Below, piece after piece: positions 50,754-64,000 of a stretch of 64,000 nt of DNA (its first letter is position 1; every line of letters begins with the position of its first letter). Under the pieces are notes generated by a model. That model ran no database searches. It saw only the letters and a list, made by a program, of their open reading frames with translations, and was not told where the DNA came from. The translations under genes and the position numbers were made by a program. Source of the stretch: Deltaproteobacteria bacterium (lineage in GTDB: Bacteria > Desulfobacterota > Desulfobacteria > Desulfobacterales > SpSt-501); contig JACRCN010000044.1 in NCBI GenBank assembly GCA_016219005.1, positions 739-64,738 on the forward strand, read 5' to 3'.

Positions 50754-50769
50754 CCTCACCATTAACCTT

Positions 50770-50806
50770 AAACCCGGGAGAGGAAGCATTTCCCTCTCCC
50801 GGGTTT
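50770..50806 (+). terminator. Strong hairpin after the flagellin gene; attenuator or terminator
   Basis: AAACCCGGGAGAGG-aagcatttc-CCTCTCCCGGGTTT is a perfect 14-bp stem, 17 nt after the stop. The T-run is limited to the TTT at the stem end. Confidence 0.55.
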
Positions 50807-50878
50807 AACGTCACTTGGCTCTTTTCTTGCATTGTGTTCAGCCCGATGTGAAAGATCGAATCCACGAGGTGAACTGGC

Positions 50879-51785: not shown

Positions 51786-53792
51786 TCAATCGGCGGCGGC
51801 GCGGCAGTTCGCCAGATGCGACACTATTTCCGAGTTGACATATCCCAGACGCGATGCCGCCTCCAGTGTCAGGCGCGCATAGTCAGCAAGTGATGCCGAT
51901 AGCAGCCGCCTTGCAATATCGAGGAATGATTCGCCGATGTATTCTCCCATGGCCAAGGACATAAGTGTATTGAGGGCACTTTCCATCTGAGATTGCTCCT
52001 CCAGGCAGGCATGGGTCACGCAAAGCAGGAATTGAGCCGCCGGATACTCCGGCTGCTTCGCCACAACCTCCTGCAGAATTAATTTGGTTTCTTCCGCCTG
52101 CCCTTCCAACAGCAATGCCAGGGCTCGGTTGAACTTAGCTTCTTTCAGAGTCGGGTCAAGCCGCAGTGCTTTTTCTGCGAAGTCTGCCGCTTCTGCATAC
52201 CGTGCAAGGTTCCAGCAGGCGGTACCGATATTCAGATGAGCCTCGGCAGATTGAGGTTGCAGCTTTAAAAATTCTTTCCACGAGTTCAGTGCCTCTTCAT
52301 GCCTCCCCAGGTGTGAGCACTGGATGGCGAATTCCCGCAGCGCCACTGGGTCACGGCGGGTTTTTTTGAGCTTTTTCCGGCCAAGATTGTTATATGCCTT
52401 CGTTTTTTCGTGGGTCTTCCCTTCCTCAAGCTTGCCGTAATGATGAACAGGGATGTCGCACGTGCCGACGGCAATGTTCAGATTCCCGAGAGCAGGCTCA
52501 ACGAGTTCGTGCACCGGGTGGGAAAAACGGATGCGCGCATCATTCGTGAACAGTCTCACCTTATCGCTGGGAATCCAGCCCGACCCCTCTTCCTCAGGAT
52601 ACTCTCCGGTATTCGGTTGCCAGCCCACGGCATTCACGTGCCGGGTGTAGTTACGGGTACGAATGCAAAAAGCCGCAGGCACCTTTTGCACTGAATTAAT
52701 TAGCTTCCTGAATTTATCATGATCCCGCACCGAAAGGATTTCATCGGCGTCCAGTACAAGAATCCAGGCACAGGATGCCTGAGAAAGCGAAAAATTCCGG
52801 GCCTCGGAGAAATCATGCGCCCACGGAAAATCGGCCACATGAGCGCCAAACGCCACGCCGATCTCCTTGGTCCGATCGGTAGATCCGGTATCGACGATGA
52901 CGATCTCGTCGACTACCGGCTTGACACTGTGAAGGCAGCGCGCCAGGTGTTTCTCCTCGTTCTTTACAATCATGCAAAGCGACACTGTGCCGCAGGTTCC
53001 GGAGCTTCCCGCACAGCGCATGGCCCCTATCTGATTCCGGATGTTCAAGGCAGCTCCAAGGATACCGCTGTCAATGCCGAAATCGACCATTGCGGATTCG
53101 ATCTCCGGCATGGCCGCGCCGCGTTTTCCTTGGCGCAACAGAACATCAATCAACAGAAAGCGCACCCGCCGGTTGAGCGCTTGGCATGTCCGTGCACGCC
53201 TGAAAGCGTCTTCCGCGCGCTGAAGGCTATTGAGGGCCAAGAGAGTTTCATGAAAGGCAAGGGTGATTTCGCGTGAAAACGGACAGCACTGAAATGCCTT
53301 TTCAAACCAATCCAAGCTCGTCTCGTGGTTGCCTGCCTCGCGGCTGAGATAACCAAGCCCCAAGCATGCCGAGCCGGAGCGAGGGTTGCGGCAAAGCGCA
53401 TCCTGAAAACACGATTCCGCAAGGATGAGATCCCCGGATCGCGCGGCAATCCGTCCCTTGATGACAAATCCGTATGCGTTGTGACTGTCAACTTCAAGCA
53501 GCATGTCTGCCGATTTCTGCGCGGACGGCACATCTCCGAGCGCTTCATGACAAATGCCGCTTAAATAGATGCGATCGATATCGATCGGGTCGCATTCAGA
53601 CGCCTGAAGCACCTTCAACGCATCCCCATAGCGCTCCGAGTCCATTAGAAGCTCCGCAAGCTTCGCGCGCGCTTCATGGCCAACGGAACCAGTTGCGATG
53701 GCTTGTGCGAGGAGGTTTACAGCCTGGTCACACCGCCCCATGCTGTAAAAAATCTCCGCGCGTTCGATGATGGTGTGTGCGTGCCTGGTCAT
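51786..53792 (-). CDS. TPR - family-2 glycosyltransferase - TPR protein; candidate flagellin glycosyltransferase
   Basis: N-terminal TPR repeats. GT2 core is VSLCMIVKNEEKHLARCLHSVKPVVDEIVIVDTGSTDRT...WILVLDADEIL (DxD). C-terminal TPRs (LNIGTACWNLARYAEAADFAEKALRLDP). Paralogous to the C-terminal third of the adjacent giant protein. Confidence 0.85.
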   Translation of the reverse strand: MTRHAHTIIERAEIFYSMGRCDQAVNLLAQAIATGSVGHEARAKLAELLMDSERYGDALKVLQASECDPIDIDRIYLSGICHEALGDVPSAQKSADMLLEVDSHNAYGFVIKGRIAARSGDLILAESCFQDALCRNPRSGSACLGLGYLSREAGNHETSLDWFEKAFQCCPFSREITLAFHETLLALNSLQRAEDAFRRARTCQALNRRVRFLLIDVLLRQGKRGAAMPEIESAMVDFGIDSGILGAALNIRNQIGAMRCAGSSGTCGTVSLCMIVKNEEKHLARCLHSVKPVVDEIVIVDTGSTDRTKEIGVAFGAHVADFPWAHDFSEARNFSLSQASCAWILVLDADEILSVRDHDKFRKLINSVQKVPAAFCIRTRNYTRHVNAVGWQPNTGEYPEEEGSGWIPSDKVRLFTNDARIRFSHPVHELVEPALGNLNIAVGTCDIPVHHYGKLEEGKTHEKTKAYNNLGRKKLKKTRRDPVALREFAIQCSHLGRHEEALNSWKEFLKLQPQSAEAHLNIGTACWNLARYAEAADFAEKALRLDPTLKEAKFNRALALLLEGQAEETKLILQEVVAKQPEYPAAQFLLCVTHACLEEQSQMESALNTLMSLAMGEYIGESFLDIARRLLSASLADYARLTLEAASRLGYVNSEIVSHLANCRAAAD

Positions 53793-56700
53793 CCGATCGT
53801 TCAGCCCTCATTTTACCGGCAGCCTCGAACAATAAGCCAGCCTGTTCCGCCCTGCCCTCGGAAATCAGGGCTGCCGCCAGTTCTTTGACGAAATCCTCAC
53901 AGTTAAAACGCTTCTTCCAAAGCATTCGAAAAAATTCGAGACCTTTCTCTTTCTGACCGTCGACATAGTAGGCGCTCGCGATCAGGCCCATGGCGGGCGG
54001 GTAATCCGGTTCGCTTTTCAGCAATTTTTCGAGAACACATACGGCATTTTTTGCATTACCTGTTATTAATTCGCAGTTTGAATAATTCAGAGCCGCCTCT
54101 TTTAGGCCCGCATTGAGCTCAAGCGCCTTCTTAGACACTGACAGCGCTTCACTGAAATTCTTTTGCGCCAGATAGGCATATCCCATATTCATCCATGCAA
54201 CGGCATCTGCAGGTTCGCGTTCGAGAAGCTCTTTCCAGATATTGATGGCCTCGTCGTATTCGCCGATTTCGGCGGCCTGGATCGCAAGCTCCCTCAGAGC
54301 ATTTATATCCCCGCCTGTTTCTTCCATCTTCTTTCTGCCCAGCAAAAAGTATTCCTTTCCTTTGGATATCACCTCCGCATGATTTAGCCTGCCATAGTGA
54401 TGAATGGGAATCTGACAAGGGGTGACCCGTATCCCACATTTTTCGATCGCTGATTCCACGGTTTCATGCACCGCGTTTTCAAATTGAATACTTCTATGGT
54501 TTAAAAAAAGCCGCACCTTTGCACTCGGGAACCAGCCCCTAGCGGATTCCTCCTCCGGGTATTCGCCGTCATTGGGTGTCCAACCACGCGACCCGATCTG
54601 ATTCGTATAATTCCGGGTGGTCAATGCATACGCGACCTTTTTAGGGTTTTGATTATGAACGATTGCACGTAAAATGGGATAATCCGCAGGCGAGATGACC
54701 TCATCCGCATCAAGAACCAAAATCCAGTCACCGGTCGCTTTACTTAAAGAAAAATTCCTTGCGGTCGAAAAGTCGCTTCCCCATTGGAAATCGAAAACCC
54801 TTGCACCGAACGCCGTGGCGATCTCCTTCGTACGGTCATTCGATCCTGTGTCTACGATTATGATTTCGTCGACAACCGGTTTCGCGCTGCTCAGACAACG
54901 CGCAAGATGGCCTTGTTCATTTTTAACGATCATGCACAAAGAGAGTCGGTTTGGCGATACATGGCCCAAATCATGAGCGCCCACCTTTTCCCTGACCGCA
55001 AGCGCGGCGGAAAGAATTCCCTCATCGATCCCAAAGCTCGCCATTGCCTGCTCGATCTGGTCCATTGCCTGTGCATGCTTGTTTTGCCTTAATAAAAGGT
55101 CGATCAGCAAAAAAGCGATTCTTCTGCTATTCGGGCAACATTCTCTTGCCTCCGTGAACAGCTCTTCAGCCCTCTGGAACTGCCCGGCGGCGGTAATTGC
55201 CGAGTGGTATGTCGTTAGGGTATGTACGCGTGTCGGTGTGAGGACAAAGCCCTTTTCAAAAAGATCGAGCGCTTCTGCAGTTTGTTCTTCAGCCCATTTC
55301 AGAATGCCGCGGTTCGTGTAGGGATCGCCATAACCCGCATCGGCTTCAATCGCCTTTTTGAAAAAAACGTCGGCTACCGCCGAATCACCTTTTCGAAAAG
55401 CGACAAGACCTTTGAGATTGAGGGCAGATGCCGAGGCAGGTTCGATGTTCAACGCCTTGTCCGCACAATCTTCTGCCTCGCCGTAGGACTCTAACCCCTC
55501 TTTGCAATATCCGATTAATTCCAGGCGTCTCGAATCTTTTTTAGAATTTTCAGGAGCAGAGCAAATTGCATCCAAACCATCCTTATATCGTTTGGAATCA
55601 ATCAGGATTTCGGCGAACCGATGATAGATCCGTGCGTCGTTCGCTGACCGGGTAATCCCTTCAAGAAGTTTTCCAATCGCTTCGTCAATTTGCCCTTTTT
55701 GATAAAATTCATCAGCTTTTTCAACCGCGGACATAGTGAAAAGACTATCGGAAAAGACACTATTTTGCTCTATCTTCTCCCATTTCTCGTCGTATCTACG
55801 TTTATCCTCTATTATTTCAACTCGATTCTTATTTTTCTTTTTATCACTTTTCCTGGTCCCATGTTTTTTGACAAACACGTCGCCGGCAATCAAGTTGCGA
55901 TAACCTGCCAGCTCCGCCCTGAGGCAGAAGTCTTCCACCGCCATGCCACTTGATTTCATCCCCTCATCGAACAGCCCCACATCATCAACGAGATCCCGCT
56001 TGAACATGGCGCAGAAACCGGCAACATGCCGCGCAGAAATTCGACGGTGCTGGTATAGACGCCTTAAAGATTGCGCAAATTTCTGCGGACGCGCCAGCGC
56101 GTCAGACCCGGATCGTGAAACCCTTGGCAAACCGAAGCCGATGACGGTCATGGGGCCGACGACCCCGACGTCTCGGACGCTTTCCAAGCACCCGATCATT
56201 CCGGCAAGCCAGCCCCCGCTCACGACCACGTCAAGGTCTAAGAGCAGCAGGTACTCACCCGATGCTTCGCGAATCCCCTGATTGCTTTCTTCTGCGAAAC
56301 CAAGATCTTCAGCATTTTCGATACATTTGCAGTTATTGTTTTCCCGCAGGATTTTTTTAACCCACTTTAAGACTGCAGGCGATGAATTGTGCGCGACAAC
56401 AATGATCTCATGGGGTTCGCCTGTGTGCTTCCTGATGCTTTTAAAACATTTTTTGACAAGCTCGAGGTCATCTGAGACACGCATAACTATTGTAGTCAGC
56501 CCATCTACCCAGTTCTGGACTGGCTGAGTTGCAGACTCAAACCTCCTAATCGGTTTTTGATGCAATGCATCAATGCGCTGCATGACCACCTTTGCGGCTT
56601 CTTCCCAGGTGAATTTAGTCTTTATCCGGGATAGCGCTGCCATTGCCTTTTCTTGGGCATCTCCCCGGTTTTCGAAAACGTGTTTCATAATCGTTTGTAA

Positions 56701-58860
56701 AGCGGCTTGATCGGGCTCGGCGAGCCAGGGGTAATCCACCGTTTTGATATTCCCGATTTTCTTCTCGGTCCGTTTCACCTCACAAGCAGGTATGAGATAA
56801 GCATTTTCCGAAGTGCAGAAGTCGAGGGCCGCCCCGTATCCCGTGACGACAACGGGCAGTCCGCATGCCATTGCCTCGGCAATCGGCAGACCAAAGCCTT
56901 CTCCACGGTACGGATGCACCAGGCAACTGCAGGCGGTGTAGAGCCCCGCCATATCCTTATCATTCAACGCATGCTCGATATACTCGATTCCCGGGGCACC
57001 CGGCCTCGACCGGTAGCCTTCGATCATCTGTTGAGCGGTCTGACCCTTGTAGAATGTCTTTCCTCCCATATCCTTGATAACAAGGCATACATCGTCTTTT
57101 TCTGAAAACGTATTGAAATAGGCGTCCAGTAAGGCATCAATGCCTTTCCGAAAGATAGTGCCTCCGACGAAAAGAAACTTGAACCGCTTCGTAGTCGAAA
57201 GCTCAAATGGCACCGCATCCGGATGGAACGTGGCGGTATCGACACCGTTGGGTACCACAAAGACCCGGTCCGCCTGCACCCCACTTCGTATATAGCATTC
57301 CCGCACATAGGAACTCGGCACCCACATTTCATCTATCATGGTCGTCATGGGGCGAATCCACTCTTCGGGCAGACTTCCAAATTCCCATGGTTGGATGTTA
57401 ACCCAGTAACCTTCCCGGGGCGGCTGGAAATTAGGGGGCCACCGATGCCTTATATGGACATCGGCTTTTCCGGAAAGCGCTTTTTGGGTCCTTTGAACAA
57501 TCCTCATAAAACGCGGATCGGCATCGGGATGGATGTCGTCTTTTCCGTAAGGGATTATCGAGACCTCACAGCCGGAGTCAATCAAACGTATGCACAATTC
57601 CCTGTTGACCAGGGCAAGAGAATGACGGACGAATTGAGAGCCCTCCCACGCTATTCTCTTGACCGGATTCTTTGCTTTCCTGTCTTTCTCCAACGCCATC
57701 TTATATTGCCATCCGGCGTTTATGGCGCTGACCATCCTGGAAACGACCTCCGACGTGCCTAACAGATTCGCCGCGCCGGCAGCCCGGGTCTGCCGCTCAT
57801 GGTTCGGCATATCATAAGCGCGACGCATGGCATTACGAACATCTTGTACGTGGAGCAGGGGCATGGATGACCCCTTGTGATTTGGTTGATACAACAGCAT
57901 TTCCTGCGTCAAAGGAATCCTGGCATGCGGATCTATAGGTATCGCGACATAGCACTCCGGCGACATATCAAGCACGCCCTCGGGCAGAATGACCATTCGC
58001 TGTCTTACCCGTGCTTCACCGACTGGCGCCGTCGAGGCGGTATCGGTGGATACATATGCGTTACAGCTATCGATTAAGCGGGCGATACCGCTTCGAGTGC
58101 CGAAATCCTCATCAAGTATAATGCTCGCTTCAGAACCGGTCTTTCGGCGCAATGACGCGACCAGATCCAGGAGGTCCTGCCGGGGCTTGCCTGGTACAGG
58201 GTGCCATAAAGGGTAATTAACCTTCAGATAAAGCTCGACATTTTCAGTCCTTTTGAATTCTTCCAGGTAGGCTTCGATCAGAGTGTCCCACCGGCGCCGG
58301 GGCAGAAACAGCGAAATATTCAGGAACCGGAAAGGCCTATCCGTACTCGACGTTTCGGGAAAGGGCGGCGGCAATGCAGGGTTTTCCAGCCAGTGGTGCG
58401 GCCAATAGACGGTGTGAACCATTTCGGGTGGAAAGCCGGCTGCGATAAAGGCTTCCCGTTCGAACTCCACGTGAAGCCAGATCTGGTCCATTTCCCTGCA
58501 CACTGCCAACATTTCGGCGGGAGGCGAGTCCTCCTTAGCATGGCAGTCAAAGACAGTGGTAGCCATAATGCGAACGTTCGGTTCCGGCAATTTTATATCC
58601 AACCAACTCCTGCTGGGCACGTGAGAGATAATAGCGGTAACTGGCGGAATAACTGGTGTTGCTTCAAGCGATTTGATAAGAGCCAGGTCACAATCATCTA
58701 TGCCTGACTCAGCCTGATTTACGGATATGATCTTGATTCGTGCACCGGCCTTATGGAGGGCCGCCACACTCGTCCGCGCTGCAACGCCGAAGCCGCTCCG
58801 ATTATAAAACGGCGCAATCCAGACTATCGTTCCGGACAACACCGGATGCTGTTTGTTCAC
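53728..58860 (-). CDS. Giant (~1,710-aa) multi-glycosyltransferase/TPR fusion: GT4-like, GT4, GT2, TPR, GT2, TPR
   Basis: The GT4 signature is HPYRGEGFGLPIAEAMACGLPVVV. The first GT2 shows TTIVMRVSDDLELVKKC...IIVVAHNSS...YLLLLDLDVVV. TPR block is FYQKGQIDEAIGKL.... The second GT2 shows LSLCMIVKNEQGHLARCL...IIIVDTGSNDRT...WILVLDADEVI. C-terminal TPRs follow. Start set at GTG 58858-58860 (AAAGGGG 7 nt upstream). The track ORF to 59193 would overlap the upstream SDR gene. Confidence 0.8.
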   Translation of the reverse strand: MNKQHPVLSGTIVWIAPFYNRSGFGVAARTSVAALHKAGARIKIISVNQAESGIDDCDLALIKSLEATPVIPPVTAIISHVPSRSWLDIKLPEPNVRIMATTVFDCHAKEDSPPAEMLAVCREMDQIWLHVEFEREAFIAAGFPPEMVHTVYWPHHWLENPALPPPFPETSSTDRPFRFLNISLFLPRRRWDTLIEAYLEEFKRTENVELYLKVNYPLWHPVPGKPRQDLLDLVASLRRKTGSEASIILDEDFGTRSGIARLIDSCNAYVSTDTASTAPVGEARVRQRMVILPEGVLDMSPECYVAIPIDPHARIPLTQEMLLYQPNHKGSSMPLLHVQDVRNAMRRAYDMPNHERQTRAAGAANLLGTSEVVSRMVSAINAGWQYKMALEKDRKAKNPVKRIAWEGSQFVRHSLALVNRELCIRLIDSGCEVSIIPYGKDDIHPDADPRFMRIVQRTQKALSGKADVHIRHRWPPNFQPPREGYWVNIQPWEFGSLPEEWIRPMTTMIDEMWVPSSYVRECYIRSGVQADRVFVVPNGVDTATFHPDAVPFELSTTKRFKFLFVGGTIFRKGIDALLDAYFNTFSEKDDVCLVIKDMGGKTFYKGQTAQQMIEGYRSRPGAPGIEYIEHALNDKDMAGLYTACSCLVHPYRGEGFGLPIAEAMACGLPVVVTGYGAALDFCTSENAYLIPACEVKRTEKKIGNIKTVDYPWLAEPDQAALQTIMKHVFENRGDAQEKAMAALSRIKTKFTWEEAAKVVMQRIDALHQKPIRRFESATQPVQNWVDGLTTIVMRVSDDLELVKKCFKSIRKHTGEPHEIIVVAHNSSPAVLKWVKKILRENNNCKCIENAEDLGFAEESNQGIREASGEYLLLLDLDVVVSGGWLAGMIGCLESVRDVGVVGPMTVIGFGLPRVSRSGSDALARPQKFAQSLRRLYQHRRISARHVAGFCAMFKRDLVDDVGLFDEGMKSSGMAVEDFCLRAELAGYRNLIAGDVFVKKHGTRKSDKKKNKNRVEIIEDKRRYDEKWEKIEQNSVFSDSLFTMSAVEKADEFYQKGQIDEAIGKLLEGITRSANDARIYHRFAEILIDSKRYKDGLDAICSAPENSKKDSRRLELIGYCKEGLESYGEAEDCADKALNIEPASASALNLKGLVAFRKGDSAVADVFFKKAIEADAGYGDPYTNRGILKWAEEQTAEALDLFEKGFVLTPTRVHTLTTYHSAITAAGQFQRAEELFTEARECCPNSRRIAFLLIDLLLRQNKHAQAMDQIEQAMASFGIDEGILSAALAVREKVGAHDLGHVSPNRLSLCMIVKNEQGHLARCLSSAKPVVDEIIIVDTGSNDRTKEIATAFGARVFDFQWGSDFSTARNFSLSKATGDWILVLDADEVISPADYPILRAIVHNQNPKKVAYALTTRNYTNQIGSRGWTPNDGEYPEEESARGWFPSAKVRLFLNHRSIQFENAVHETVESAIEKCGIRVTPCQIPIHHYGRLNHAEVISKGKEYFLLGRKKMEETGGDINALRELAIQAAEIGEYDEAINIWKELLEREPADAVAWMNMGYAYLAQKNFSEALSVSKKALELNAGLKEAALNYSNCELITGNAKNAVCVLEKLLKSEPDYPPAMGLIASAYYVDGQKEKGLEFFRMLWKKRFNCEDFVKELAAALISEGRAEQAGLLFEAAGKMRAERSDDQARTHHHRTRGDFLQHGAV

Positions 58861-59006
58861 TGACCTACCCCTTTCCAAAATTCTGACACAGAAATTTCTA
58901 GCTCGATCGCCAGGCGGCTGAACCCGGATTGCCGGTGGTTCTTCTATCCGGATTTTCCATGCTGGAATGACATGTGCCCGGACAACCTCATCCCGGTTCA
59001 CTAGAT

Positions 59007-60092
59007 TTACCGGCCCTGCATCGGCGTCATGGAAAAGAAGTCCACCGTGCGCCGAATGGCGCATTCCAGGTTGATCCACATCCCTATCCCCAGCTCTTTC
59101 TGCGCCTTTTGGGTCGACGGCACGTAGCGATCCGGAAGTGCGCCGGGAGCGGGCCTTCCGATGATGTGGACTTCGGGGGGGTTGGGTAAGCAATTCGCCA
59201 CGAATCGGGCCAACTCGGCGATGCTCAAGGCGTCTTCGGAACCAACGTTGTAGATCCCGCCCGGACTACCTTTGAAAAGGATCGTCCAGAGCCAGATTGT
59301 GAGATCAGCGGCATAAAGGTATGCGCGGACAGCCGTTCCATCCCCCTGCACGACAACGGGGCCGCCACGAAGGGCATCCCGGATGAAATTCCCGATGGCA
59401 TAATGAAGGTCCAGGGGCAGACGAGGACCGACGAAGCTGAAGCAGCGAGCGATGGTAATGGCAATCCCGGAGGTCTCACCGATCGCTTCGCAGAGGAATT
59501 CTGCGGCGCGCTTTCCCTCGGCCAGGGCCCGCTGGGGGTAGCCGCGAACCGGGCCCCCTGCAAAATCCTCAGGAATCCGGTCAAGATCCTTCGGCTGCGG
59601 TCCATACACCACGCCCGAACTCGTGAAGAGCATCCGCCGTGCTCCGCTTTGGACCGCGAAGTCCAGCACCCTGCGCGTTCCCATCGCGAGGGTTTCATAC
59701 TTCCGCAGGGATGATTCCCCGGCAAAGGTCTCCCTGGCGTTGGTGGTCGCTGCATGGAAGATCAAGTCAAAGGCCCCTTCCGGAAAGGCGAAGTCCCTAA
59801 CGTCGCCTGCCACAAGCACGATGGCCGGATCGTCCGCCAAATGAGGAAGGGATCGCCGGAAGCCCCCGGGGTCGCGGGTGAGCACGACGGCGGATGCGTT
59901 CAAGTCCAGGCGCTGGTTTGCGAACGTCAAACTCTCCAGCAACCAACTGCCAAAGAAGCCCGTCGCTCCAGTGAGAAATAGGCGTTTACCTTTGAGCCCA
60001 TCCCAAATATCGCTTGCCTTTGCGAGGATGTGGCAGAGATCCGCCTCCGGAAGCTGTGGGATGCATGCGATTGGTGGCATCTTAATACCCAT
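59007..60092 (-). CDS. NAD-dependent sugar epimerase/dehydratase (extended SDR; UDP-glucuronate-decarboxylase-like)
   Basis: The Rossmann motif is LFLTGATGFFGSWLL. The catalytic region Y....EGKRAAEFL resembles the UXS-type YDEGKRVAE. Confidence 0.85.
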   Translation of the reverse strand: MGIKMPPIACIPQLPEADLCHILAKASDIWDGLKGKRLFLTGATGFFGSWLLESLTFANQRLDLNASAVVLTRDPGGFRRSLPHLADDPAIVLVAGDVRDFAFPEGAFDLIFHAATTNARETFAGESSLRKYETLAMGTRRVLDFAVQSGARRMLFTSSGVVYGPQPKDLDRIPEDFAGGPVRGYPQRALAEGKRAAEFLCEAIGETSGIAITIARCFSFVGPRLPLDLHYAIGNFIRDALRGGPVVVQGDGTAVRAYLYAADLTIWLWTILFKGSPGGIYNVGSEDALSIAELARFVANCLPNPPEVHIIGRPAPGALPDRYVPSTQKAQKELGIGMWINLECAIRRTVDFFSMTPMQGR

Positions 60093-60144
60093 TGGATCGG
60101 GATGCTGGTTGATGATAGAGAGTGCACAAACCCATGCGCTTTAT

Positions 60145-61467
60145 TTAATCCGATCCTCCTACATGCCGGTATTGGTCTCGTATGCCTTGTTCTCCAGGGA
60201 ATTGCAGCATTTCACCGCCTTCTCCGCAATGGTCACAGCTTTCGTAGTGCGGTTGTTCGTCGACCTGCAGAATTTTTTCCCGCAACTCCTGGGCAGAATG
60301 TGTCGCATCGATTCTCACCCAGTCGCATGGGTAATCTGCAAGATGATGGGAACCGATGCCGGCAGTGGTGGAGCAAGGGTAGTAAACGCCATTCTGGATG
60401 GTCTTGCAGCTATTAATTGAATTGCATCCGGCTTTCATTGCGATTTTAGTGGCTCCGGGGAGATTCAATTTGCGCAAGGACGCCGGGGTTGACCAGAGCG
60501 GCTGACCAACCGTGAAGTTAATGCCACTCTCGGATGCGTGTCTAACATTTTTTGCAAATAGATTGCGCTGGTTTTCCGACAGGCTTGTCGTATAGTCTGA
60601 AAAAATCAGGCGAGTCTTTCTATTGTTGAGTTTGATGATGTGTTTGTCCTTGATGTCGCAGATGCCGTTCGTGGTGATTCCGAGCACGCCGAAATTGGGC
60701 TTACCGAGCACAAGATCAATGATATCGTTCAATGCGGGGTGCAGGAACGGTTCCCCTCCTATAATCGAAACGTAGCCAATCGCATCCACCGCGTCGAAAA
60801 TCCGGTCAATATCCGTCTTGATCCGTTCAAGAGTGAAATTGATGCGCTCCTCCCGCGGATAGTGATTTATGTACTGCCCGCAATGCTGGCATTTCAGCGT
60901 GCATTTCTGGTTAATTGCGAAGGTTGCTACCGGGAAGACAAGCTTGCCGCTGAAATCATTAAGGCGTGCCTTCTTGCATTCCCGATACAGCAGACTCGGC
61001 AGGCGTTTGCATGCACACCAGTTGCAAAACGTCGTGCCGATGCAAACCTTCGCATCGAAGCCGGTCTCTGGCTTCATTCCGCACATCAAGGCCTCAAACA
61101 ATGCCATGCCGGAAAGGTAATGGCGATAACCCACTGCCAAAAATTCCTGTTCACCGACACTGCCCGACAGGCTCCCGTTCGGGATGCAGCTTACGATGAG
61201 TGTTCGTTCACGGTCGAATTCCGACGAGAACGGCATAGTAACCTTAATGTCGTTGACTTCCTTCAATTCTGCGGCACGGATATCCCAATAACAAAGCTGT
61301 TCGCGGGGGACACCCCCTGCAATAAGGAAAGCGCCGAATGCCGTGCCAAATTTTCCAGCGCCGCGCAGGACGATATTCCGGAAGCCTTTGATGTATCGGC
61401 CGATTTCAGCGGAGTGATCGCTGTCACCCCTTCTGGCAAGTTCCAGGACTTCGTTAATGTTTTTCAT
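60145..61467 (-). CDS. Radical-SAM enzyme with an N-terminal GxGxxG domain and extra Cys clusters (paralog 1)
   Basis: The radical-SAM triad is NQKCTLKCQHCGQY (CxxxCxxC), followed by IIGGEPFLHP. Upstream Cys motif is CGMKPETGFDAKVCIGTTFCNWCAC. N-terminus has VLRGAGKFGTAFG. C-terminus has YPCS...YPCDW...SCDHCGEG. ATG 61467 (GAGGGAG upstream) is preferred over TTG 61500. Confidence 0.8.
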   Translation of the reverse strand: MKNINEVLELARRGDSDHSAEIGRYIKGFRNIVLRGAGKFGTAFGAFLIAGGVPREQLCYWDIRAAELKEVNDIKVTMPFSSEFDRERTLIVSCIPNGSLSGSVGEQEFLAVGYRHYLSGMALFEALMCGMKPETGFDAKVCIGTTFCNWCACKRLPSLLYRECKKARLNDFSGKLVFPVATFAINQKCTLKCQHCGQYINHYPREERINFTLERIKTDIDRIFDAVDAIGYVSIIGGEPFLHPALNDIIDLVLGKPNFGVLGITTNGICDIKDKHIIKLNNRKTRLIFSDYTTSLSENQRNLFAKNVRHASESGINFTVGQPLWSTPASLRKLNLPGATKIAMKAGCNSINSCKTIQNGVYYPCSTTAGIGSHHLADYPCDWVRIDATHSAQELREKILQVDEQPHYESCDHCGEGGEMLQFPGEQGIRDQYRHVGGSD

Positions 61468-61506
61468 GTGCGGTCGGCTCCCTCGTTGATCAGTTGACAA
61501 CGGTTG

Positions 61507-62727
61507 TCACGCCGGGCAGGCCCTTGGTGTCGTCATTAGGCGCACAACTCTGTTCGGCAGTCCGAGACAGCGTATCGATTTTTCTATGCTTTCAGAGGAG
61601 TTTTCGCCACAAATAACAATGTCACCGCTGAATGAGCATAAGGTTTTTGGGGGCTCGACGGTCAAACCCATCAGCCTTTCTCCCTGTCGCTCAGGATTAC
61701 TGTCTACAAGGTGGCGGATGCTGCAGTTCCTCAGGGGCGTATGAGTAAGCATTCGATAAGCAAAGATTGAAACTCCCCACAATGCAATTTCGTGTGAATT
61801 CAATTGGGCGATATTCGAAAGGACAGCATTCCCTTTATCGCTCGGACGGGTGAAGCTGTCATAAATAAATTGAGCATCGGCTGCAGCGAAACATAGAGGC
61901 TTTTTAACATCGGATTTTTCAAATAATGCACGTATGCAAGGATAGATTCCGGGCGTCGACTCGTATTGTATCAGCGTGAATGCGCGCATCAAATTCAGCA
62001 ACGAAACCAGGCTAAAATGGTTAATATGCTCGAATTCAAAGAAATAGCCGGGGAACGGACTGCATTCCTGGAAGCGGGCAAGATCGGGGAGTTCGACGTA
62101 GATCCTTCCCCTCGGTTTAAGCCACTTCCCAACATTGTCAAGGCACGCCAGCGGGAATTCCAGATGCTCGAGGACGTGACGCAATATGATCAAATCAAAC
62201 TTGTTCTCAAATTCTGGGAATAAATCAGTGGCCAAGCCCGTTCTGCCGGGAATTCCACGGTCTGATAAGTATTTAATTGCGGCCCGATCCGGGTCGATGG
62301 CATACAGGTTGTCGAAACCGGCGCGCTGCAACGACGCCAAAGTAACGCCAAATGAGCAACCTATGTCCACGATGGTTTGGTTCGTCGGCTTCAATCCTGC
62401 GCGTACCAAGAAGCTGGTCGTCATATCGTTGAGCCGTGCCTGATCGACAGAGACCTGGTAGTGGTTCGTGTCGGAACCCGTATAGGATTCGTAATAGTCG
62501 TCACGGTCATCCTGATGCCTGACGTTATGAAAGACGGCACCGCAGCGGGCGCATGCGTTGACCGAAAATGAGTGCTGCAACGAAAAGTTATCCGGAACGA
62601 CCAGTTCTATATGCCGAATGGGGGAGGACTCCCTAGATCCACAGACGGGGCAAGTGCGAGGTGCGACCGCCGTTGCATCGGTACGGCCGGCGAAGGTGTC
62701 TGTTGAAGATGGAATATTCTGCGACAT
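61507..62727 (-). CDS. SAM-dependent methyltransferase with an N-terminal zinc ribbon (NDP-hexose C-methyltransferase-like architecture)
   Basis: Zn ribbon is CPVCGS...CARCGAVFHN. SAM motif I is IVDIGCSFGVTL, then FDLIILRHVLEHL, plus a ~120-aa C-terminal domain. ATG 62725-62727 with GGAAGGAG 7 nt upstream. Confidence 0.8.
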   Translation of the reverse strand: MSQNIPSSTDTFAGRTDATAVAPRTCPVCGSRESSPIRHIELVVPDNFSLQHSFSVNACARCGAVFHNVRHQDDRDDYYESYTGSDTNHYQVSVDQARLNDMTTSFLVRAGLKPTNQTIVDIGCSFGVTLASLQRAGFDNLYAIDPDRAAIKYLSDRGIPGRTGLATDLFPEFENKFDLIILRHVLEHLEFPLACLDNVGKWLKPRGRIYVELPDLARFQECSPFPGYFFEFEHINHFSLVSLLNLMRAFTLIQYESTPGIYPCIRALFEKSDVKKPLCFAAADAQFIYDSFTRPSDKGNAVLSNIAQLNSHEIALWGVSIFAYRMLTHTPLRNCSIRHLVDSNPERQGERLMGLTVEPPKTLCSFSGDIVICGENSSESIEKSIRCLGLPNRVVRLMTTPRACPA

Positions 62728-62789
62728 AAAGAGGCTCCTTCCGGCAGATAAAAATGCACTTAAACCGGGGGTATGAATCCGCGTTCCTG

Positions 62790-64000
62790 CTATTCCTCGG
62801 GTAGCGCGTACCGACTGTCGAAACCTTGCTCCGCGGCTTGGCTTGTCAATGCCGGGGATCCGAAAGCATCGCAGTGCCCGCATGCTCGGTAATGCAAGCG
62901 CGATATCAGCTCGCGAATACCATCGCGAATTTCCTCTGGCGATTTATTGGGATCAAGAAGGACATAGTCCGTCTTATAATCAGCCACGCGGAGGTCATGA
63001 ATAGACAGGGCAAAAGCGCACGGGAAAAGTCTGCCATCGAATACGTACAGGAAGCGCACACCACACGCACTTTTCTTTTGGATCGTCGTTTCGATGGAAT
63101 CTCGTTTGTTCTCGAGCGTAGATGAGATGTTCCAGGTCGGCAACGTGTTTTGATACTTTGTATTGACGCCCGAGGATTTGGCGGTTTCGATGTTCCTGAA
63201 AAACAACGCTTTTTTCCTCTCGTCAATCACTTCGAGGTAATTTGAAAACGCTAGGCGAACCCGTTCGTCTGCCATGCTAGCGAGTTGGCTATTCTCAATG
63301 CGGACGGTCCCGTTGCTGTTAACGATAACTGCCCCCATATTATCGTGGGATAACACACGGCTGACAATCCGATCGAGGTCTTTATGGAGGAACGGTTCGC
63401 CGCCGAAGATGTTGACAACGCCGAACGAATGTACTGCGCGCATAACGACATCAATATCTTGCAGTATCTGCCCGATAGATACGTTTTGTTTATACTCTTT
63501 GGGATAACTATTGATGTAGACGAAACAATGCTTGCACTTCAGATTACATATGTTATTGACAATAAAATGGACTCTGTCGAACGACAGTGTTTCGCCCAGC
63601 GAAATGCCCAGTTTTCGGGCTGCGTTCGCCCGGACGATGTTGTGCAGACGTTCGCACGAGCATACGCTGCAAATGTCAAGACTGTTGCAGATTTTTGTGT
63701 CGGGAGGCCGTTCGTTGGAGAGAGGGCATAGCAGCCCTTGCAGAAGATCGTTCCCATGCACCACGTGCTTCCAACCGTTTTCGGCCAGTTGCCGAAAGAC
63801 ATTCGGCCCGATGGCCACATTGCCAATACAAAAGAGAACCAATGTCGTTTCTTTTCTTAAATAACCTGTAAAGGGAGGGGTAACGCCCAGGCCGTTGCAC
63901 GTTTTGATAATCTCGGCCTGAATGTCCCAATAACAGGAAACGGGGACACCTAGCTCCAGTAGCTTGCTGCCTACCGCAGTCCCGAGGTTACCTGCCCCCC
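62790..64000 (-). CDS. Radical-SAM enzyme paralog 2; the 5' end runs off the window
   Basis: NNICNLKCKHCFVY, IFGGEPFLHK, the upstream Cys motif CPLSNERPPDTKICNSLDICSVCSC, and C-terminal ACGHCDAFG. Manual translation upstream of the track's TTG (63842) stays open to 64000 and reads GAGNLGTAVGSKLLELGVPVSCYWDIQAEII. This is homologous to GAGKFGTAFGAFLIAGGVPREQLCYWDIRAAEL of paralog 1. Confidence 0.75.
   Translation of the reverse strand, partial: GAGNLGTAVGSKLLELGVPVSCYWDIQAEIIKTCNGLGVTPPFTGYLRKETTLVLFCIGNVAIGPNVFRQLAENGWKHVVHGNDLLQGLLCPLSNERPPDTKICNSLDICSVCSCERLHNIVRANAARKLGISLGETLSFDRVHFIVNNICNLKCKHCFVYINSYPKEYKQNVSIGQILQDIDVVMRAVHSFGVVNIFGGEPFLHKDLDRIVSRVLSHDNMGAVIVNSNGTVRIENSQLASMADERVRLAFSNYLEVIDERKKALFFRNIETAKSSGVNTKYQNTLPTWNISSTLENKRDSIETTIQKKSACGVRFLYVFDGRLFPCAFALSIHDLRVADYKTDYVLLDPNKSPEEIRDGIRELISRLHYRACGHCDAFGSPALTSQAAEQGFDSRYALPEE

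What the first reader, a model, noticed from the sequence alone, without database searches (positions are those of the whole stretch)
59007..64000. Sugar-tailoring cassette built around two paralogous, multi-cluster radical-SAM enzymes of unusual architecture
Two paralogs (60145-61467 and 62790 to beyond 64000) share a four-part layout that I cannot assign to a characterised radical-SAM subfamily.
1. An N-terminal GxGxxG Rossmann-like module (RGAGKFGTAFG / GAGNLGTAVG, both followed by CYWDI).
2. A conserved Cys motif just upstream of the core: CGMKPETGFDAKVCIGTTFCNWCAC in paralog 1 and CPLSNERPPDTKICNSLDICSVCSC in paralog 2.
3. The CxxxCxxC radical-SAM triad.
4. A C-terminal Cys-containing tail ending in C(D/G)HC.

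They flank a Zn-ribbon methyltransferase whose three-part layout resembles NDP-hexose C-methyltransferases. They sit next to an extended-SDR sugar epimerase/dehydratase and the giant glycosyltransferase.

The most economical reading is a pathway that makes a heavily modified (C-methylated, radical-rearranged) nucleotide sugar destined for the flagellin. The cassette continues past the window edge.
Basis: partly seen in the sequence, partly recalled or inferred. Interest (0 to 1): 0.8.

Follow-up and report, generated by a model that had tools for sequence, protein, structure and literature searches.

The report
Paired radical-SAM sugar enzymes beside flagellin
Two related iron-sulfur "radical" enzymes of an unstudied family, each carrying a domain that probably grips a nucleotide-sugar, sit with a sugar methyltransferase and glycosyltransferases next to the flagellin gene, which suggests radical chemistry helps build the sugar coat of the flagellum.

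Summary
Two paralogues (33% identity, E 2e-78) share four conserved parts:
- a GxGxxG mini-Rossmann domain;
- a Cys4 site;
- a CxxxCxxC/GGE radical-SAM core;
- a C-terminal Cx11Gx4C...CxxC tail.

These parts are conserved in relatives down to about 22% identity. No curated Pfam or NCBIfam family claims the proteins.

The architecture can be placed. Core plus tail is a twitch-type radical-SAM fold. The closest solved structures are SpeY and BtrN, which are sugar/cyclitol dehydrogenases. The N-domain is homologous (hhalign 96%, E 7.5e-9, with negative controls) to the C-terminal domain of the TcaB9-like methyltransferase encoded between the two genes. It also resembles PglD_N.

The cassette runs past the window edge, and its gene order is syntenic across phyla: B12-rSAM, double GT2, rSAM-2, methyltransferase, rSAM-1, SDR. 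It lies within 10 kb of flagellin in at least four lineages, and once lies beside a Wzx flippase.

Best reading: paired twitch enzymes that dehydrogenate or epimerise a nucleotide-linked sugar for a glycan which here goes on flagellin. A RiPP role is rejected. The chemistry, metal content and target remain inferred. This is a new variant of a known kind.

The parts
60145..61467 (-). rSAM-1: complete 440-aa member of the uncharacterised twitch radical-SAM family
   Evidence: ORF and translation. PF04055 scores 35.5 bits against a 29.5 cut-off. 97 homologues found. AF2 model pLDDT 92.6. Best fold match is SpeY, E 2e-11.
61084..61386 (-). rSAM-1 N-terminal mini-Rossmann 'handle' domain (residues 28-128; GxGxxG at G36/G38/G41; invariant D62 at the end of beta-2)
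   Evidence: Conservation. A profile of 53 diverse N-domains against the cassette methyltransferase's C-terminal domain gives hhalign prob 95.8-96.8%, E 7.5e-9 / 2.4e-10, with negative controls. PglD_N is hit by 24/53 and PF08484 by 10/53. Best PDB match by sequence profile is 3nkl, E 3e-7. The window sequence on its own gives only sub-threshold NAD-Rossmann hits, and Foldseek finds nothing at E<=1e-3.
61009..61083 (-). rSAM-1 pre-core Cys motif C129-x12-C142-x5-C148-x2-C151-x-C153, a predicted Cys4 metal site (Zn or Fe-S)
   Evidence: C129, C142, C148 and C153 are invariant in 91 homologues; C151 is present in 77%. Distant members keep four Cys with a CxxC spacing. The metal was not determined. 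No detectable homology to the methyltransferase's Zn ribbon.
60463..60939 (-). rSAM-1 partial TIM-barrel radical-SAM core (residues 177-335), with the CxxxCxxC triad at 60880-60903, the GGE motif (G237-E239) and the clade-specific C270
   Evidence: Pfam and NCBIfam stretches. Alternating strands and helices in the model. Invariant residues. C270 occurs in the rSAM-1 clade and in only one other paralogue.
60220..60435 (-). rSAM-1 twitch domain (residues 345-416): C348-x11-G360-x4-C365 ... C411-x2-C414
   Evidence: Matches the first half of the SPASM motif CX9-15GX4C plus a CX2C, and lacks CX5CX3C (definition in PMC6231123). The model has a beta-hairpin at 356-363 followed by helices. These Cys are invariant family-wide. 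SpeY and BtrN matches span core plus tail.
61507..62727 (-). TcaB9-like three-domain SAM methyltransferase (406 aa): Zn ribbon 62530-62658, class I methyltransferase fold about 61978-62430, C-terminal handle domain 61549-61806
   Evidence: Methyltransf_23 at E 2e-19. Best PDB hits are sugar 3-C-methyltransferases: single sequence E 1.6e-6; family profile E 3e-13 against 4rv9 over positions 43-351, and TcaB9 over 13-248. C26, C59, C62, E233 and H234 are invariant and C29 is nearly invariant. PF08421 and PF08484 do not hit at E<=0.1.
62790..64000 (-). rSAM-2: paralogue cut by the window edge (residues 58-459 of a 459-aa protein). GxGxxG...YWD at 63924-63998, Cys motif at 63654-63728, triad at 63525-63548, twitch Cys at 62871-63065
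   Evidence: Frame open to the edge. Full length recovered from L001. 33% identity to rSAM-1, E 2e-78. PF04055 scores 40.8 bits. It lacks C270 and C354.
59007..60092 (-). Extended SDR (361 aa) whose YxxxK catalytic Tyr is replaced by Leu
   Evidence: PF01370 at E 9e-32. Best PDB hit is UDP-glucuronate decarboxylase, E 1e-28, where the enzyme's Tyr aligns with Leu in ALAEGK. All cassette orthologues carry L or W at that position.
53728..59064 (-). Giant 1778-aa glycosyltransferase (GT4 + GT2 modules + TPR), co-directional with and overlapping the SDR gene's 3' end
   Evidence: Pfam. Gene call in L001. A homologue lies directly next to an rSAM-1 orthologue in Desulfosarcinaceae L010.
51786..53741 (-). 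651-aa GT2-TPR protein, a paralogue of the C-terminal third of the giant glycosyltransferase
   Evidence: Pfam. 42% identity, E 8e-151.
49920..51665 (+). Flagellin (49920-50753), FlbT (50879-51289) and FlaF (51261-51665): the presumed target and its regulators, convergent with the cassette operon
   Evidence: PF00669/PF00700, PF07378 and PF07309.

Best explanation
**What the genes encode (shown).** The two genes encode paralogous members of an uncharacterised radical-SAM family. Each protein has four parts.
1. An N-terminal mini-Rossmann domain of about 100 aa (GxGxxG plus an invariant Asp). It is homologous to the C-terminal domain of TcaB9-type sugar C-methyltransferases, including the methyltransferase encoded between the two genes, and it resembles PglD_N.
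2. A conserved Cys4 metal site.
3. A partial TIM-barrel core with CxxxCxxC and GGE motifs.
4. A C-terminal twitch domain with the Cys pattern expected for one auxiliary [4Fe-4S] cluster.

**How they probably work (inferred).**
- The N-domain holds the nucleotide of an NDP-linked sugar.
- Reductive cleavage of SAM gives 5'-deoxyadenosyl radical, which abstracts the carbinol hydrogen of a sugar secondary alcohol, as in SpeY and BtrN.
- In rSAM-2 the resulting radical is oxidised through the auxiliary cluster to a keto-sugar. This would supply the enolisable ketone that a TcaB9-like C-methyltransferase needs. The cassette's SDR lacks its catalytic Tyr and so may not supply it by the classical route.
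- In rSAM-1 the clade-specific Cys270 may return a hydrogen from the opposite face, giving epimerisation.
- The neighbouring double GT2, the giant glycosyltransferase and the GT2-TPR protein then build and attach the glycan. In this genome the likely target is the adjacent flagellin.

The cassette is a horizontally mobile module.
For: **Architecture**
- Motifs are conserved across 91 homologues and 40 diverse paralogues.
- The AF2 model has pLDDT 92.6 and pTM 0.90.

**Fold**
- The best PDB matches are the SpeY twitch dehydrogenase (E 2e-11, TM 0.63 on the target, about 290 aligned columns) and BtrN.
- SpeY is also the best hit by sequence, at E 4e-5 with the family profile.
- The Cys pattern fits the published twitch definition.

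**N-domain**
- hhalign against the methyltransferase's C-terminal domain gives prob 95.8-96.8%. Controls against the SDR Rossmann fold and the methyltransferase fold give 1.0% and 1.6%.
- An independent alignment gives 79% in the same register.
- PglD_N is hit by 24/53 N-domains and PF08484 by 10/53.
- By sequence profile, 3nkl (an NDP-sugar enzyme domain) is the best PDB hit and VioB also appears.
- Foldseek aligns the PglB acetyltransferase N-domain at rmsd 2.6 A.

**Methyltransferase.** It is homologous to sugar 3-C-methyltransferases over all three domains.

**Genomic context**
- The gene order B12-rSAM, GT2x2, rSAM-2, methyltransferase, rSAM-1, SDR is syntenic in Sulfurimicrobium, Holophaga, Methylophaga and Sideroxydans.
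- The methyltransferase co-occurs with the rSAM-2-type partner in every case seen. Where the methyltransferase is absent, the partner is of a different type or missing.
- Fusion proteins exist: GT2 plus a family member, and N-domain plus Cys4 joined to a TagF-like transferase.
- Flagellin lies within 10 kb in the window, L002, L003/L041, L004, L007, L008, L040 and L022.
- GC falls from about 63% to 48-52% across the island.
Against: - No biochemical data exist for any member of the family.
- The window's own N-domain gives no significant Pfam or Foldseek hit. The homology appears only with a broad family profile; a narrow profile gives hhalign prob 1.6%.
- NAD-binding Rossmann families also match the N-domain: 2-Hacid_dh_C hits 21/53, and Rex and TrkA appear among PDB hits. 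An NAD(P) ligand is therefore not excluded.
- One variant cassette lies beside a Wzx flippase and YfhO rather than flagellin. No flagellin was found within 10 kb in Sideroxydans or Rhodocyclus.
- The authors of the SkfB structure warn that function is hard to predict from similarity within the SPASM/twitch subfamily (PMC6231123).
- Assigning rSAM-2 as dehydrogenase and rSAM-1 as epimerase rests on one clade-specific Cys and on co-occurrence only.
- An SDR without its Tyr can still be active (CapE has MxxxK; from memory).
Confidence: 0.55

Rival explanations
1. Same enzymes and the same nucleotide-sugar substrates, but different radical chemistry. Candidates are C-C bond rearrangement, ring contraction, dehydration or deamination (DesII/AprD4-like), decarboxylation (BlsE-like), or C-C chain extension.
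For: Twitch and SPASM folds support many chemistries, and similarity predicts function poorly (PMC6231123). BlsE and MoaA are also among the fold hits. In other genomes the islands hold TPP enzymes, a NeuB-cupin fusion and further radical-SAM genes, which suggests a very elaborate sugar.
Against: The two best structural analogues over the whole core plus tail are alcohol dehydrogenases (SpeY, BtrN). The fully Cys-ligated auxiliary site (four invariant Cys) resembles BtrN rather than the open site of MoaA.
Confidence: 0.2
2. The enzymes tailor the glycan after it has been transferred, on flagellin or on a lipid carrier. The N-domain would then serve docking or oligomerisation rather than nucleotide binding.
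For: The upstream B12-type radical-SAM enzyme carries a TPR tail, and the flagellin glycosyltransferases are rich in TPR repeats. Some family members are fused to GT2 domains. Some relatives of about 300 aa lack the N-domain altogether.
Against: The N-domain keeps a GxGxxG loop and an invariant Asp at the end of beta-2, the classic signature for binding a nucleotide ribose. It is homologous to domains found in NDP-sugar enzymes. The paralogues themselves have no TPR or other protein-docking domain.
Confidence: 0.12
3. The N-domain binds NAD(P)(H) or a second SAM, so that the proteins are redox-coupled or methylating radical enzymes rather than enzymes that grip a nucleotide-sugar.
For: NAD-binding Rossmann families are among the best matches: 2-Hacid_dh_C hits 21/53 (best E 3e-6), with TrkA at E 1e-6 and Rex at E 4e-6. 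Rex is the top Foldseek hit. GxGxxG plus an acidic residue is also motif I/II of class I methyltransferases.
Against: The profile-profile match is specific to the methyltransferase's C-terminal domain and does not extend to the SDR NAD domain or the methyltransferase's SAM-binding fold. PglD_N is the most frequent Pfam hit. At about 100 aa and five strands the domain is too small for a methyltransferase fold. A hydride carrier with no flavin has no obvious role next to one-electron Fe-S chemistry (inference).
Confidence: 0.08
4. Peptide-modifying (RiPP-type) maturases, or enzymes that modify the flagellin polypeptide itself.
For: The weak generic NCBIfam hits include AlbA, PapB and other peptide maturases. 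SuiB, SkfB and EpeE appear lower in the fold list.
Against: Every such hit is far below its cut-off and covers only the cluster-binding half of the core. There is no seven-Cys SPASM motif and no RRE. The N-domain is Rossmann-like. Gaps between cassette genes are 52, 39 and 62 nt in the window, too short for a precursor ORF. The conserved neighbours are all sugar enzymes.
Confidence: 0.04

Closest known systems
SpeY (spectinomycin pathway twitch radical-SAM dehydrogenase; PDB 7wzv/7wzx/7x0b)
   Same: Best match by both fold and sequence. Foldseek E 2e-11, TM 0.63 on SpeY, about 290 aligned columns covering core plus twitch tail. Family profile E 4e-5; the 'G..Y.C' hairpin also aligns, but in a second stretch that scores below significance. 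SpeY acts on a carbohydrate-type secondary alcohol (PDB title; pathway role from memory).
   Different: Only 17% identity. SpeY is about 320 aa and has neither the N-terminal Rossmann domain nor the Cys4 site. It belongs to an aminoglycoside antibiotic cluster rather than a surface-glycan cassette. The match is too weak to be found in a whole-database search, so this is not the same family.
BtrN (2-deoxy-scyllo-inosamine dehydrogenase; PDB 4m7t)
   Same: The archetypal twitch enzyme, with one fully Cys-ligated auxiliary [4Fe-4S] cluster (PMC6231123). Fold hit at E 2e-6. The spacing of Cys before the hairpin, after the hairpin and in the final CxxC is similar (BtrN residue numbers from memory).
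   Different: About 250 aa with no N-terminal extension. 14% identity. Its substrate is a free aminocyclitol, not a nucleotide-linked sugar.
HygY and NeoN (radical-SAM sugar epimerases; from memory, not tested here)
   Same: They abstract a carbinol hydrogen in the same way, then a non-ligand Cys returns a hydrogen. The rSAM-1 clade has one extra conserved non-ligand Cys, C270.
   Different: No sequence or structure comparison could be run here. The equivalence of C270 to their donor Cys is a guess.
TcaB9, D-mycarose 3-C-methyltransferase and KijD1 (NDP-hexose C-3 methyltransferases; PDB 3ndi, 4rv9, 5t6b)
   Same: The cassette methyltransferase shares all three domains with them: a Cys4 Zn ribbon, a class I methyltransferase fold with the conserved E-H pair, and the C-terminal domain. 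The N-domain of the radical-SAM paralogues is homologous to that C-terminal domain.
   Different: The Pfam models PF08421 and PF08484 do not reach E 0.1 on the window methyltransferase, so it is a divergent branch. C-methylation rather than O- or N-methylation is not shown. In the radical-SAM proteins the shared domain is N-terminal and is fused to a different catalytic engine.
PglD/VioB-type N-acetyltransferase N-domain (PF17836 PglD_N) and the WbpM-like domain 3nkl
   Same: A small GxGxxG Rossmann-like module found in NDP-sugar enzymes. 24 of 53 family N-domains hit PglD_N. By sequence profile, 3nkl scores E 3e-7 and VioB E 6e-5. Foldseek aligns 4m99 at rmsd 2.6 A over 91 columns.
   Different: Matches to single sequences are weak, and NAD-binding Rossmann families score similarly. 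That this module binds the nucleotide in PglD is recalled from memory.
Class B (cobalamin) radical-SAM sugar methylases such as GenK and Fom3
   Same: They also pair an N-terminal alpha/beta domain with a radical-SAM core and work in sugar tailoring. A true B12-binding radical-SAM gene lies upstream in the same cassette.
   Different: The two paralogues give no PF02310 hit and no B12-domain fold match. They carry a twitch tail instead.

Membership tests
Radical SAM superfamily (PF04055) | CxxxCxxC cluster motif, with a Pfam score above the gathering threshold | tested here: met
   C189/C193/C196 are invariant. PF04055 scores 35.5 and 40.8 bits against a 29.5 cut-off.
Radical SAM superfamily (PF04055) | GGE SAM-binding motif and a partial (beta/alpha)6 barrel | tested here: met
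   G237-G238-E239 are invariant. The AF2 model shows alternating strands and helices over residues 177-321.
Twitch-domain radical SAM enzymes (BtrN/SpeY/MoaA type) | First half of the SPASM motif, CX9-15GX4C, flanking a beta-hairpin that is followed by a helix | tested here: met
   C348-x11-G360-x4-C365. The model has a hairpin at 356-358/361-363 and a helix at 366-373. Definition from PMC6231123.
Twitch-domain radical SAM enzymes (BtrN/SpeY/MoaA type) | Further Cys ligands after the helix, and only one auxiliary cluster site (no CX5CX3C...C) | tested here: met
   C411-x2-C414 is invariant and no Cys follows it.
Twitch-domain radical SAM enzymes (BtrN/SpeY/MoaA type) | Fold similarity to solved twitch enzymes | tested here: met
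   SpeY E 2e-11 with TM 0.63 on the target; BtrN E 2e-6; MoaA E 9e-7.
Twitch-domain radical SAM enzymes (BtrN/SpeY/MoaA type) | Actual binding of an auxiliary Fe-S cluster | not testable with these tools
   Needs Fe/S analysis and EPR or Moessbauer spectroscopy on reconstituted protein.
SpeY/BtrN-type carbohydrate dehydrogenases (function) | SAM-dependent 2-electron oxidation of a sugar or cyclitol secondary alcohol | not testable with these tools
   There is only structural analogy and a sugar-enzyme gene context.
SPASM peptide maturases (RiPP) | Seven-Cys motif for two auxiliary clusters | tested here: not met
   Only the CX9-15GX4C and CX2C elements are present. PF13186 does not hit.
SPASM peptide maturases (RiPP) | N-terminal RRE (PqqD-like) domain and an adjacent precursor peptide gene | tested here: not met
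   The N-domain is Rossmann-like. Intergenic gaps are 52, 39 and 62 nt. The conserved neighbours are sugar enzymes.
Class B cobalamin-dependent radical SAM | N-terminal B12-binding domain (PF02310) | tested here: not met
   The paralogues give no PF02310 hit and no B12 domain among the fold hits. The upstream gene does have one in orthologues.
TcaB9-type NDP-hexose C-methyltransferases (applies to the methyltransferase at 61507-62727) | N-terminal four-Cys Zn ribbon | tested here: met
   C26, C59 and C62 are invariant and C29 is nearly invariant. The region aligns with the TcaB9 N-terminus over positions 13-248.
TcaB9-type NDP-hexose C-methyltransferases (applies to the methyltransferase at 61507-62727) | Class I SAM fold with the conserved Glu-His pair | tested here: met
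   Methyltransf_23 at E 2e-19. E233-H234 are invariant and align with the 'EH' of 4rv9. The catalytic role of this pair in TcaB9 is recalled from memory.
TcaB9-type NDP-hexose C-methyltransferases (applies to the methyltransferase at 61507-62727) | C-terminal PF08484-type domain | tested here: inconclusive
   The family profile aligns through the C-terminal domain of 4rv9 (positions 43-351, E 3e-13). However, the Pfam models PF08421 and PF08484 give no hit at E<=0.1 on the window protein.
TcaB9-type NDP-hexose C-methyltransferases (applies to the methyltransferase at 61507-62727) | C-methylation of a keto-sugar | not testable with these tools
   Needs an enzyme assay.
Extended SDR sugar epimerase/dehydratase (applies to 59007-60092) | TGxxGxxG NAD-binding motif and overall fold | tested here: met
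   LTGATGFFGS is present. PF01370 at E 9e-32. UXS1 at E 1e-28 over the full length.
Extended SDR sugar epimerase/dehydratase (applies to 59007-60092) | Catalytic YxxxK | tested here: not met
   The Tyr position is Leu (ALAEGK) in the window and L or W in all ten cassette orthologues. Lys is kept.

The most novel reading that the evidence does not exclude
These proteins found a new class of radical-SAM enzymes that act directly on nucleotide-activated sugars. On this reading:
- They recruit the same PF08484/PglD_N-like nucleotide-handle domain as the classical C-methyltransferase encoded between them.
- They carry a third metal site.
- They work as an obligate pair. Members usually lie next to one another, and some chains appear to contain two radical-SAM cores.
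- They replace the classical SDR 4,6-dehydratase route to the keto-sugar, since the cassette SDR has lost its catalytic Tyr.
- They yield a flagellin (and, in other organisms, polysaccharide) sugar of a kind not yet described.
Probability: 0.3. Interest if true: 0.8.

Novelty: new variant of a known kind. Interest (0 to 1): 0.6.

Why it matters
**Radical chemistry in a surface glycan.** Radical-SAM chemistry on sugars is known mostly from antibiotic pathways (BtrN, SpeY, DesII, GenK). I found no paper in the searchable library linking radical-SAM enzymes to flagellin glycosylation islands. The cassette described here has these properties:
- its gene order is syntenic across phyla;
- it is horizontally mobile;
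- it holds up to three radical-SAM enzymes;
- it recurs next to flagellin genes in Desulfobacterota, Acidobacteriota, Beta- and Gammaproteobacteria.

If the reading is right, it predicts flagellar glycans with radical-installed modifications.

**A sizeable unstudied family.** The family has 351 clusters (at 50% identity) with E<=1e-30 and no curated model.

**Shared substrate handle.** A radical enzyme and a polar methyltransferase share a homologous domain within one operon. This suggests that enzymes of one pathway are kept on the same substrate by a common nucleotide-binding module. It also gives a practical rule for finding other radical-SAM enzymes that act on NDP-sugars.

**Testable in culture.** Cultivable carriers exist, such as Methylophaga aminisulfidivorans MP, Holophaga foetida DSM 6591 and Rhodocyclus, so the prediction can be tested directly.

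Tried and rejected
1. **Named families.** Pfam and NCBIfam were searched for a named family. Only generic PF04055 passes. Every NCBIfam equivalog (AlbA, QueE, MoaA, viperin and others) is far below its cut-off.
2. **Narrow N-domain profile.** hhalign of the close-family N-domain against the methyltransferase's C-terminal domain was not significant (prob 1.6%). Significance came only with a broader family profile.
3. **Foldseek on the N-domain alone.** Nothing reached E<=1e-3. The list was generic Rossmann folds led by Rex, so fold search alone cannot name the ligand.
4. **Cys4 region against the methyltransferase's Zn ribbon.** This tested whether handle plus Cys4 is a permuted copy of the methyltransferase's accessory unit. 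The result was prob 2.6%, so there is no support.
5. **RiPP reading.** Rejected: no SPASM motif, no RRE, and no room for a precursor ORF.
6. **B12-binding reading of the N-domain.** Rejected.
7. **Literature.** The primary TcaB9 paper is not held.
8. **tblastn against plasmids.** The only hit was an unannotated Nonomuraea record at 25% identity.
9. **Cys-Cys distances in the AF2 model.** Model coordinates are not exposed by the tools, so Zn versus Fe-S geometry could not be examined.
10. **Extending the contig.** L001 ends at window-equivalent position 66966, inside the B12 radical-SAM gene.

Full report
**1. What is in the sequence**

On the minus strand the window carries a tight, co-directional gene row:
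- GT2-TPR protein, 51786-53741;
- giant 1778-aa glycosyltransferase, 53728-59064;
- SDR, 59007-60092;
- rSAM-1, 60145-61467;
- methyltransferase, 61507-62727;
- rSAM-2, 62790 to beyond the edge.

The gaps between the last four genes are 52, 39 and 62 nt. The row converges on flagellin, FlbT and FlaF on the plus strand. The rest of the window is, by size and gene order (not annotated here), a flagellar and chemotaxis region.

The two radical-SAM proteins are clear paralogues, with 33% identity over their full length and E 2e-78.

A Logan contig (L001) is 99.9% identical to the window, with 10 mismatches in 13,047 bases. It completes rSAM-2 at 459 aa. Upstream it shows a 511-aa protein with two GT2 domains and a radical-SAM gene with a C-terminal TPR tail. 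Orthologues of that last gene carry a B12-binding domain. The observation, including "continues past the window edge", is confirmed.

**2. The layout is a family property**

A homologue search found 97 proteins, none with a functional name. An exhaustive profile search found 351 clusters at 50% identity with E<=1e-30, and 2,714 with E<=1e-10.

In 91 aligned homologues the following are invariant:
- D62;
- C129, C142, C148 and C153;
- the triad C189, C193 and C196;
- the GGE motif G237-E239;
- C348, C365, C411 and C414.

G36, G38 and G41 are nearly invariant (99%).

The same sites hold in 40 paralogues from 25 loci down to about 22% identity, apart from one sequence (L025) that lacks the Cys4 residues. 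In distant members the pre-core site takes a C...CxxC...C form.

Two Cys are clade-specific. C270 (TTNGIC) occurs in all rSAM-1-type proteins and in only one other paralogue, from L045. C354 is missing only in the rSAM-2 type.

No curated model claims the family. Pfam gives only PF04055 over the first half of the core. PF13353 is below threshold, and PF13186 and PF13394 do not hit. All NCBIfam hits are tens of bits against cut-offs in the hundreds.

**3. Placing the core and tail**

The AF2 model of rSAM-1 is confident, with pLDDT 92.6 and pTM 0.90.

Foldseek against the PDB ranks the twitch radical-SAM dehydrogenase SpeY first: E 2e-11, TM 0.63 normalised to SpeY, and about 290 aligned columns, which is nearly all of SpeY. 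MoaA and BtrN follow.

SpeY is also the best hit by sequence, at E 0.006 for the single sequence and 4e-5 for the profile. The hairpin "G..Y.C" also aligns, but only in a second stretch that scores below significance.

The C-terminal Cys pattern is C348-x11-G360-x4-C365 ... C411-x2-C414. This fits the published definition. SPASM is CX9-15GX4C-gap-CX2CX5CX3C-gap-C for two clusters. Twitch is the truncated form that binds one cluster, built from a beta-hairpin followed by a helix, with Cys before and after the hairpin and after the helix (PMC6231123). The model has the hairpin at 356-363.

They belong to the twitch structural subclass, though to no characterised family within it.

**4. The N-terminal domain**

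Modelled alone (pLDDT 89.8), it is a five-stranded mini-Rossmann fold.

Foldseek gives nothing at E<=1e-3. The weak list is led by Rex. It includes the PglB/PglD-type acetyltransferase N-domain at rmsd 2.6 A over 91 columns. The window sequence alone gives only sub-threshold NAD-Rossmann Pfam hits.

Family-level evidence is stronger.
- **Pfam.** Of 53 diverse N-domains, 24 hit PglD_N (best E 4e-5), 21 hit 2-Hacid_dh_C and 10 hit PF08484, the C-terminal domain of C-methyltransferases.
- **PDB by sequence profile.** The best matches are a domain of UDP-D-quinovosamine 4-dehydrogenase (3nkl, E 3e-7), TrkA, Rex and the PglD-like VioB.
- **Profile against profile.** Against the cassette methyltransferase family, N-domain positions 10-99 align with the methyltransferase's C-terminal domain at positions 303-388, with probability 95.8% and E 7.5e-9.
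- **Controls.** The SDR Rossmann fold gives 1.0%. The methyltransferase's Zn ribbon plus SAM fold gives 1.6%. The C-terminal domain alone gives 96.8% at E 2.4e-10.
- **Independent alignment.** A separate alignment of 40 paralogues gives 79% in the same register.

The methyltransferase's C-terminal domain itself aligns with that of D-mycarose 3-C-methyltransferase.

The three consecutive enzymes rSAM-2, methyltransferase and rSAM-1 therefore share one homologous accessory domain. In PglD, and as I recall in TcaB9, this kind of module helps hold the nucleotide of the NDP-sugar (from memory). The invariant GxGxxG and the Asp at the end of beta-2 fit binding of a ribose (inference). NAD(P) cannot be excluded.

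**5. The neighbours**

*Methyltransferase.* It has a Cys4 ribbon, a class I fold with an invariant E233-H234 pair, and the C-terminal domain. Its best solved relatives are sugar 3-C-methyltransferases: 4rv9 at E 3e-13 over positions 43-351, and TcaB9 and KijD1 including the Zn ribbon. PF08421 and PF08484 do not hit it directly.

*SDR.* It is most like UDP-glucuronate decarboxylase (E 1e-28). Its catalytic Tyr is Leu, and it is Leu or Trp in all ten cassette orthologues.

**6. Comparative context**

The order B12-rSAM, GT2x2, rSAM-2, methyltransferase, rSAM-1, SDR is syntenic in Sulfurimicrobium, Holophagaceae, Holophaga foetida, Methylophaga aminisulfidivorans and Sideroxydans, at 60-75% protein identity.

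The window's GC drops from about 63% to 48-52% over the island. Together these point to horizontal transfer.

A variant cassette replaces the methyltransferase with a GDSL esterase, and the partner paralogue is then of a third type (Rhodocyclus, L045, L046). Two Methylophaga-type loci have a single rSAM-1-type gene. In this sample the methyltransferase and the rSAM-2 type always occur together.

Family members usually come in adjacent pairs or triples. Some representatives appear to carry two radical-SAM cores in one chain. Others are fused to GT2. In one, the N-domain plus Cys4 is fused to a TagF-like transferase.

Flagellin, often with FlaG and FliD, lies within 10 kb of a family member in the window, L002, L003/L041, L004, L007, L008, L040 and L022. 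A random gene would be that close to a flagellin locus in roughly 1% of cases (my estimate), so the association is real.

It is not exclusive, however. L045 lies beside a Wzx flippase and YfhO, and no flagellin was seen within 10 kb in Sideroxydans or Rhodocyclus. The islands in other genomes also carry a NeuB-cupin fusion, a TPP enzyme, DegT, a canonical PF08421/PF08484 C-methyltransferase, HAD, NUDIX and a further radical-SAM/SPASM gene. This suggests a very elaborate sugar, possibly of the nonulosonic type.

**7. Mechanism**

*Shown:* the architecture, the twitch fold, the shared handle domain, the sugar-enzyme context and the recurrence beside flagellin.

*Inferred:*
- The handle binds the nucleotide of an NDP-sugar.
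- 5'-deoxyadenosyl radical abstracts a carbinol hydrogen, as in SpeY and BtrN.
- rSAM-2 completes oxidation to a ketone through the auxiliary cluster. This would feed the TcaB9-like methyltransferase, which needs an enolisable keto-sugar (from memory). The Tyr-less SDR may not provide that ketone.
- rSAM-1 may epimerise, with C270 as hydrogen donor by analogy with NeoN and HygY (from memory).
- The GT2 enzymes then assemble and attach the glycan, here probably to flagellin.

I give the general reading about 0.55. The specific division of labour between the two paralogues gets about 0.25.

**8. Rivals**

| Rival | Confidence |
|---|---|
| Different radical chemistry on the same substrates | 0.2 |
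| Tailoring after glycan transfer | 0.12 |
| N-domain binds NAD or SAM | 0.08 |
| RiPP or protein modification | 0.04 |

The last is effectively refuted by the missing SPASM motif, RRE and precursor ORF.

**9. Novelty**

No characterised member exists and no curated model covers the family. The literature searches aimed at a radical-SAM link to flagellin glycosylation or to nucleotide-sugar pathways found nothing relevant in the held library.

The core chemistry probably falls within a known kind, twitch radical-SAM carbohydrate enzymes. The following features look new:
- the fused nucleotide-handle domain;
- the extra Cys4 site;
- the pairing of paralogues;
- the flagellin-island setting.

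The verdict is a new variant of a known kind, with interest 0.6.

Noticed in passing
window 59007-60092 (-); orthologues in L002-L009 and L041-L046: The cassette SDR has Leu where the catalytic Tyr of YxxxK should be (ALAEGK aligned to CYDEGK of human UXS1). All ten cassette orthologues have Leu or Trp there. A distant non-cassette relative (L023) keeps Tyr.
   Followed up: partly
L001 3-1253 (window-equivalent about 65714-66964, beyond the edge): A third radical-SAM gene heads the cassette. Its orthologues have a B12-binding domain, and it ends in TPR repeats, an unusual tail for a class B radical-SAM enzyme that hints at docking to a protein.
   Followed up: partly
window 50000-64000: GC falls from about 0.60-0.68 in the flagellar and chemotaxis region to 0.55 at 50-54 kb and 0.48-0.52 at 54-64 kb. 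The cassette proteins are 60-75% identical to those of Holophaga and Sulfurimicrobium. Both observations are consistent with horizontal acquisition of the glycosylation island.
   Followed up: partly
window 51786-53741 (-) and 53728-59064 (-): The 651-aa GT2-TPR protein is a paralogue (42% identity, E 8e-151) of residues 1124-1752 of the 1778-aa giant glycosyltransferase. The giant enzyme looks like a GT4/GT2 head fused to a copy of its neighbour.
   Followed up: yes
L042, L045, L046 (Rhodocyclus and two metagenome contigs): A variant cassette swaps the TcaB9-like methyltransferase for a GDSL esterase/lipase. The partner paralogue then changes to a third type, with C151 replaced by Tyr. L045 lies beside a Wzx flippase and YfhO rather than flagellin.
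   Followed up: partly
proteins P0169, P0170, P0182, P0183, P0244, P0167: Natural fusions exist. Examples are GT2 plus a full family member; the N-domain plus Cys4 joined to a TagF-like glycerophosphotransferase; and chains that appear to carry two radical-SAM cores. They were not checked for gene-calling artefacts.
   Followed up: no
L040 and L041 (Methylophaga, Holophagaceae), flanks of the cassette: The islands also carry a NeuB-cupin fusion, a TPP-dependent enzyme, DegT, a canonical PF08421/PF08484 C-methyltransferase, HAD, NUDIX and a 370-aa radical-SAM/SPASM gene. These all lie between the cassette and flagellin-FlaG-FliD. They may define the sugar backbone, possibly a nonulosonic-acid type.
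   Followed up: no
window 49920-51665 (+): A short 277-aa flagellin with FlbT and FlaF, regulators best known from Alphaproteobacteria, occurs in a contig that NCBI labels a Deltaproteobacteria MAG.
   Followed up: no
window 62790-63842 versus 62790-63998: the ORF listing reported the rSAM-2 frame as a 350-aa ORF starting at a TTG at 63842, although the frame stays open to the window edge. The true protein starts 57 codons beyond the window. Similarly, the longest methyltransferase ORF (to 62883) overlaps rSAM-2, whereas orthologues support the start at 62727.
   Followed up: yes
L047 (Nonomuraea gerenzanensis NZ_LT559118.1, about 10.128 Mb): A relative at 25% identity covers Cys4, core and twitch but not the N-domain. 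It sits in an 11.8-Mb actinomycete replicon that is filed as a plasmid and carries no annotation there. It may belong to a natural-product cluster.
   Followed up: no
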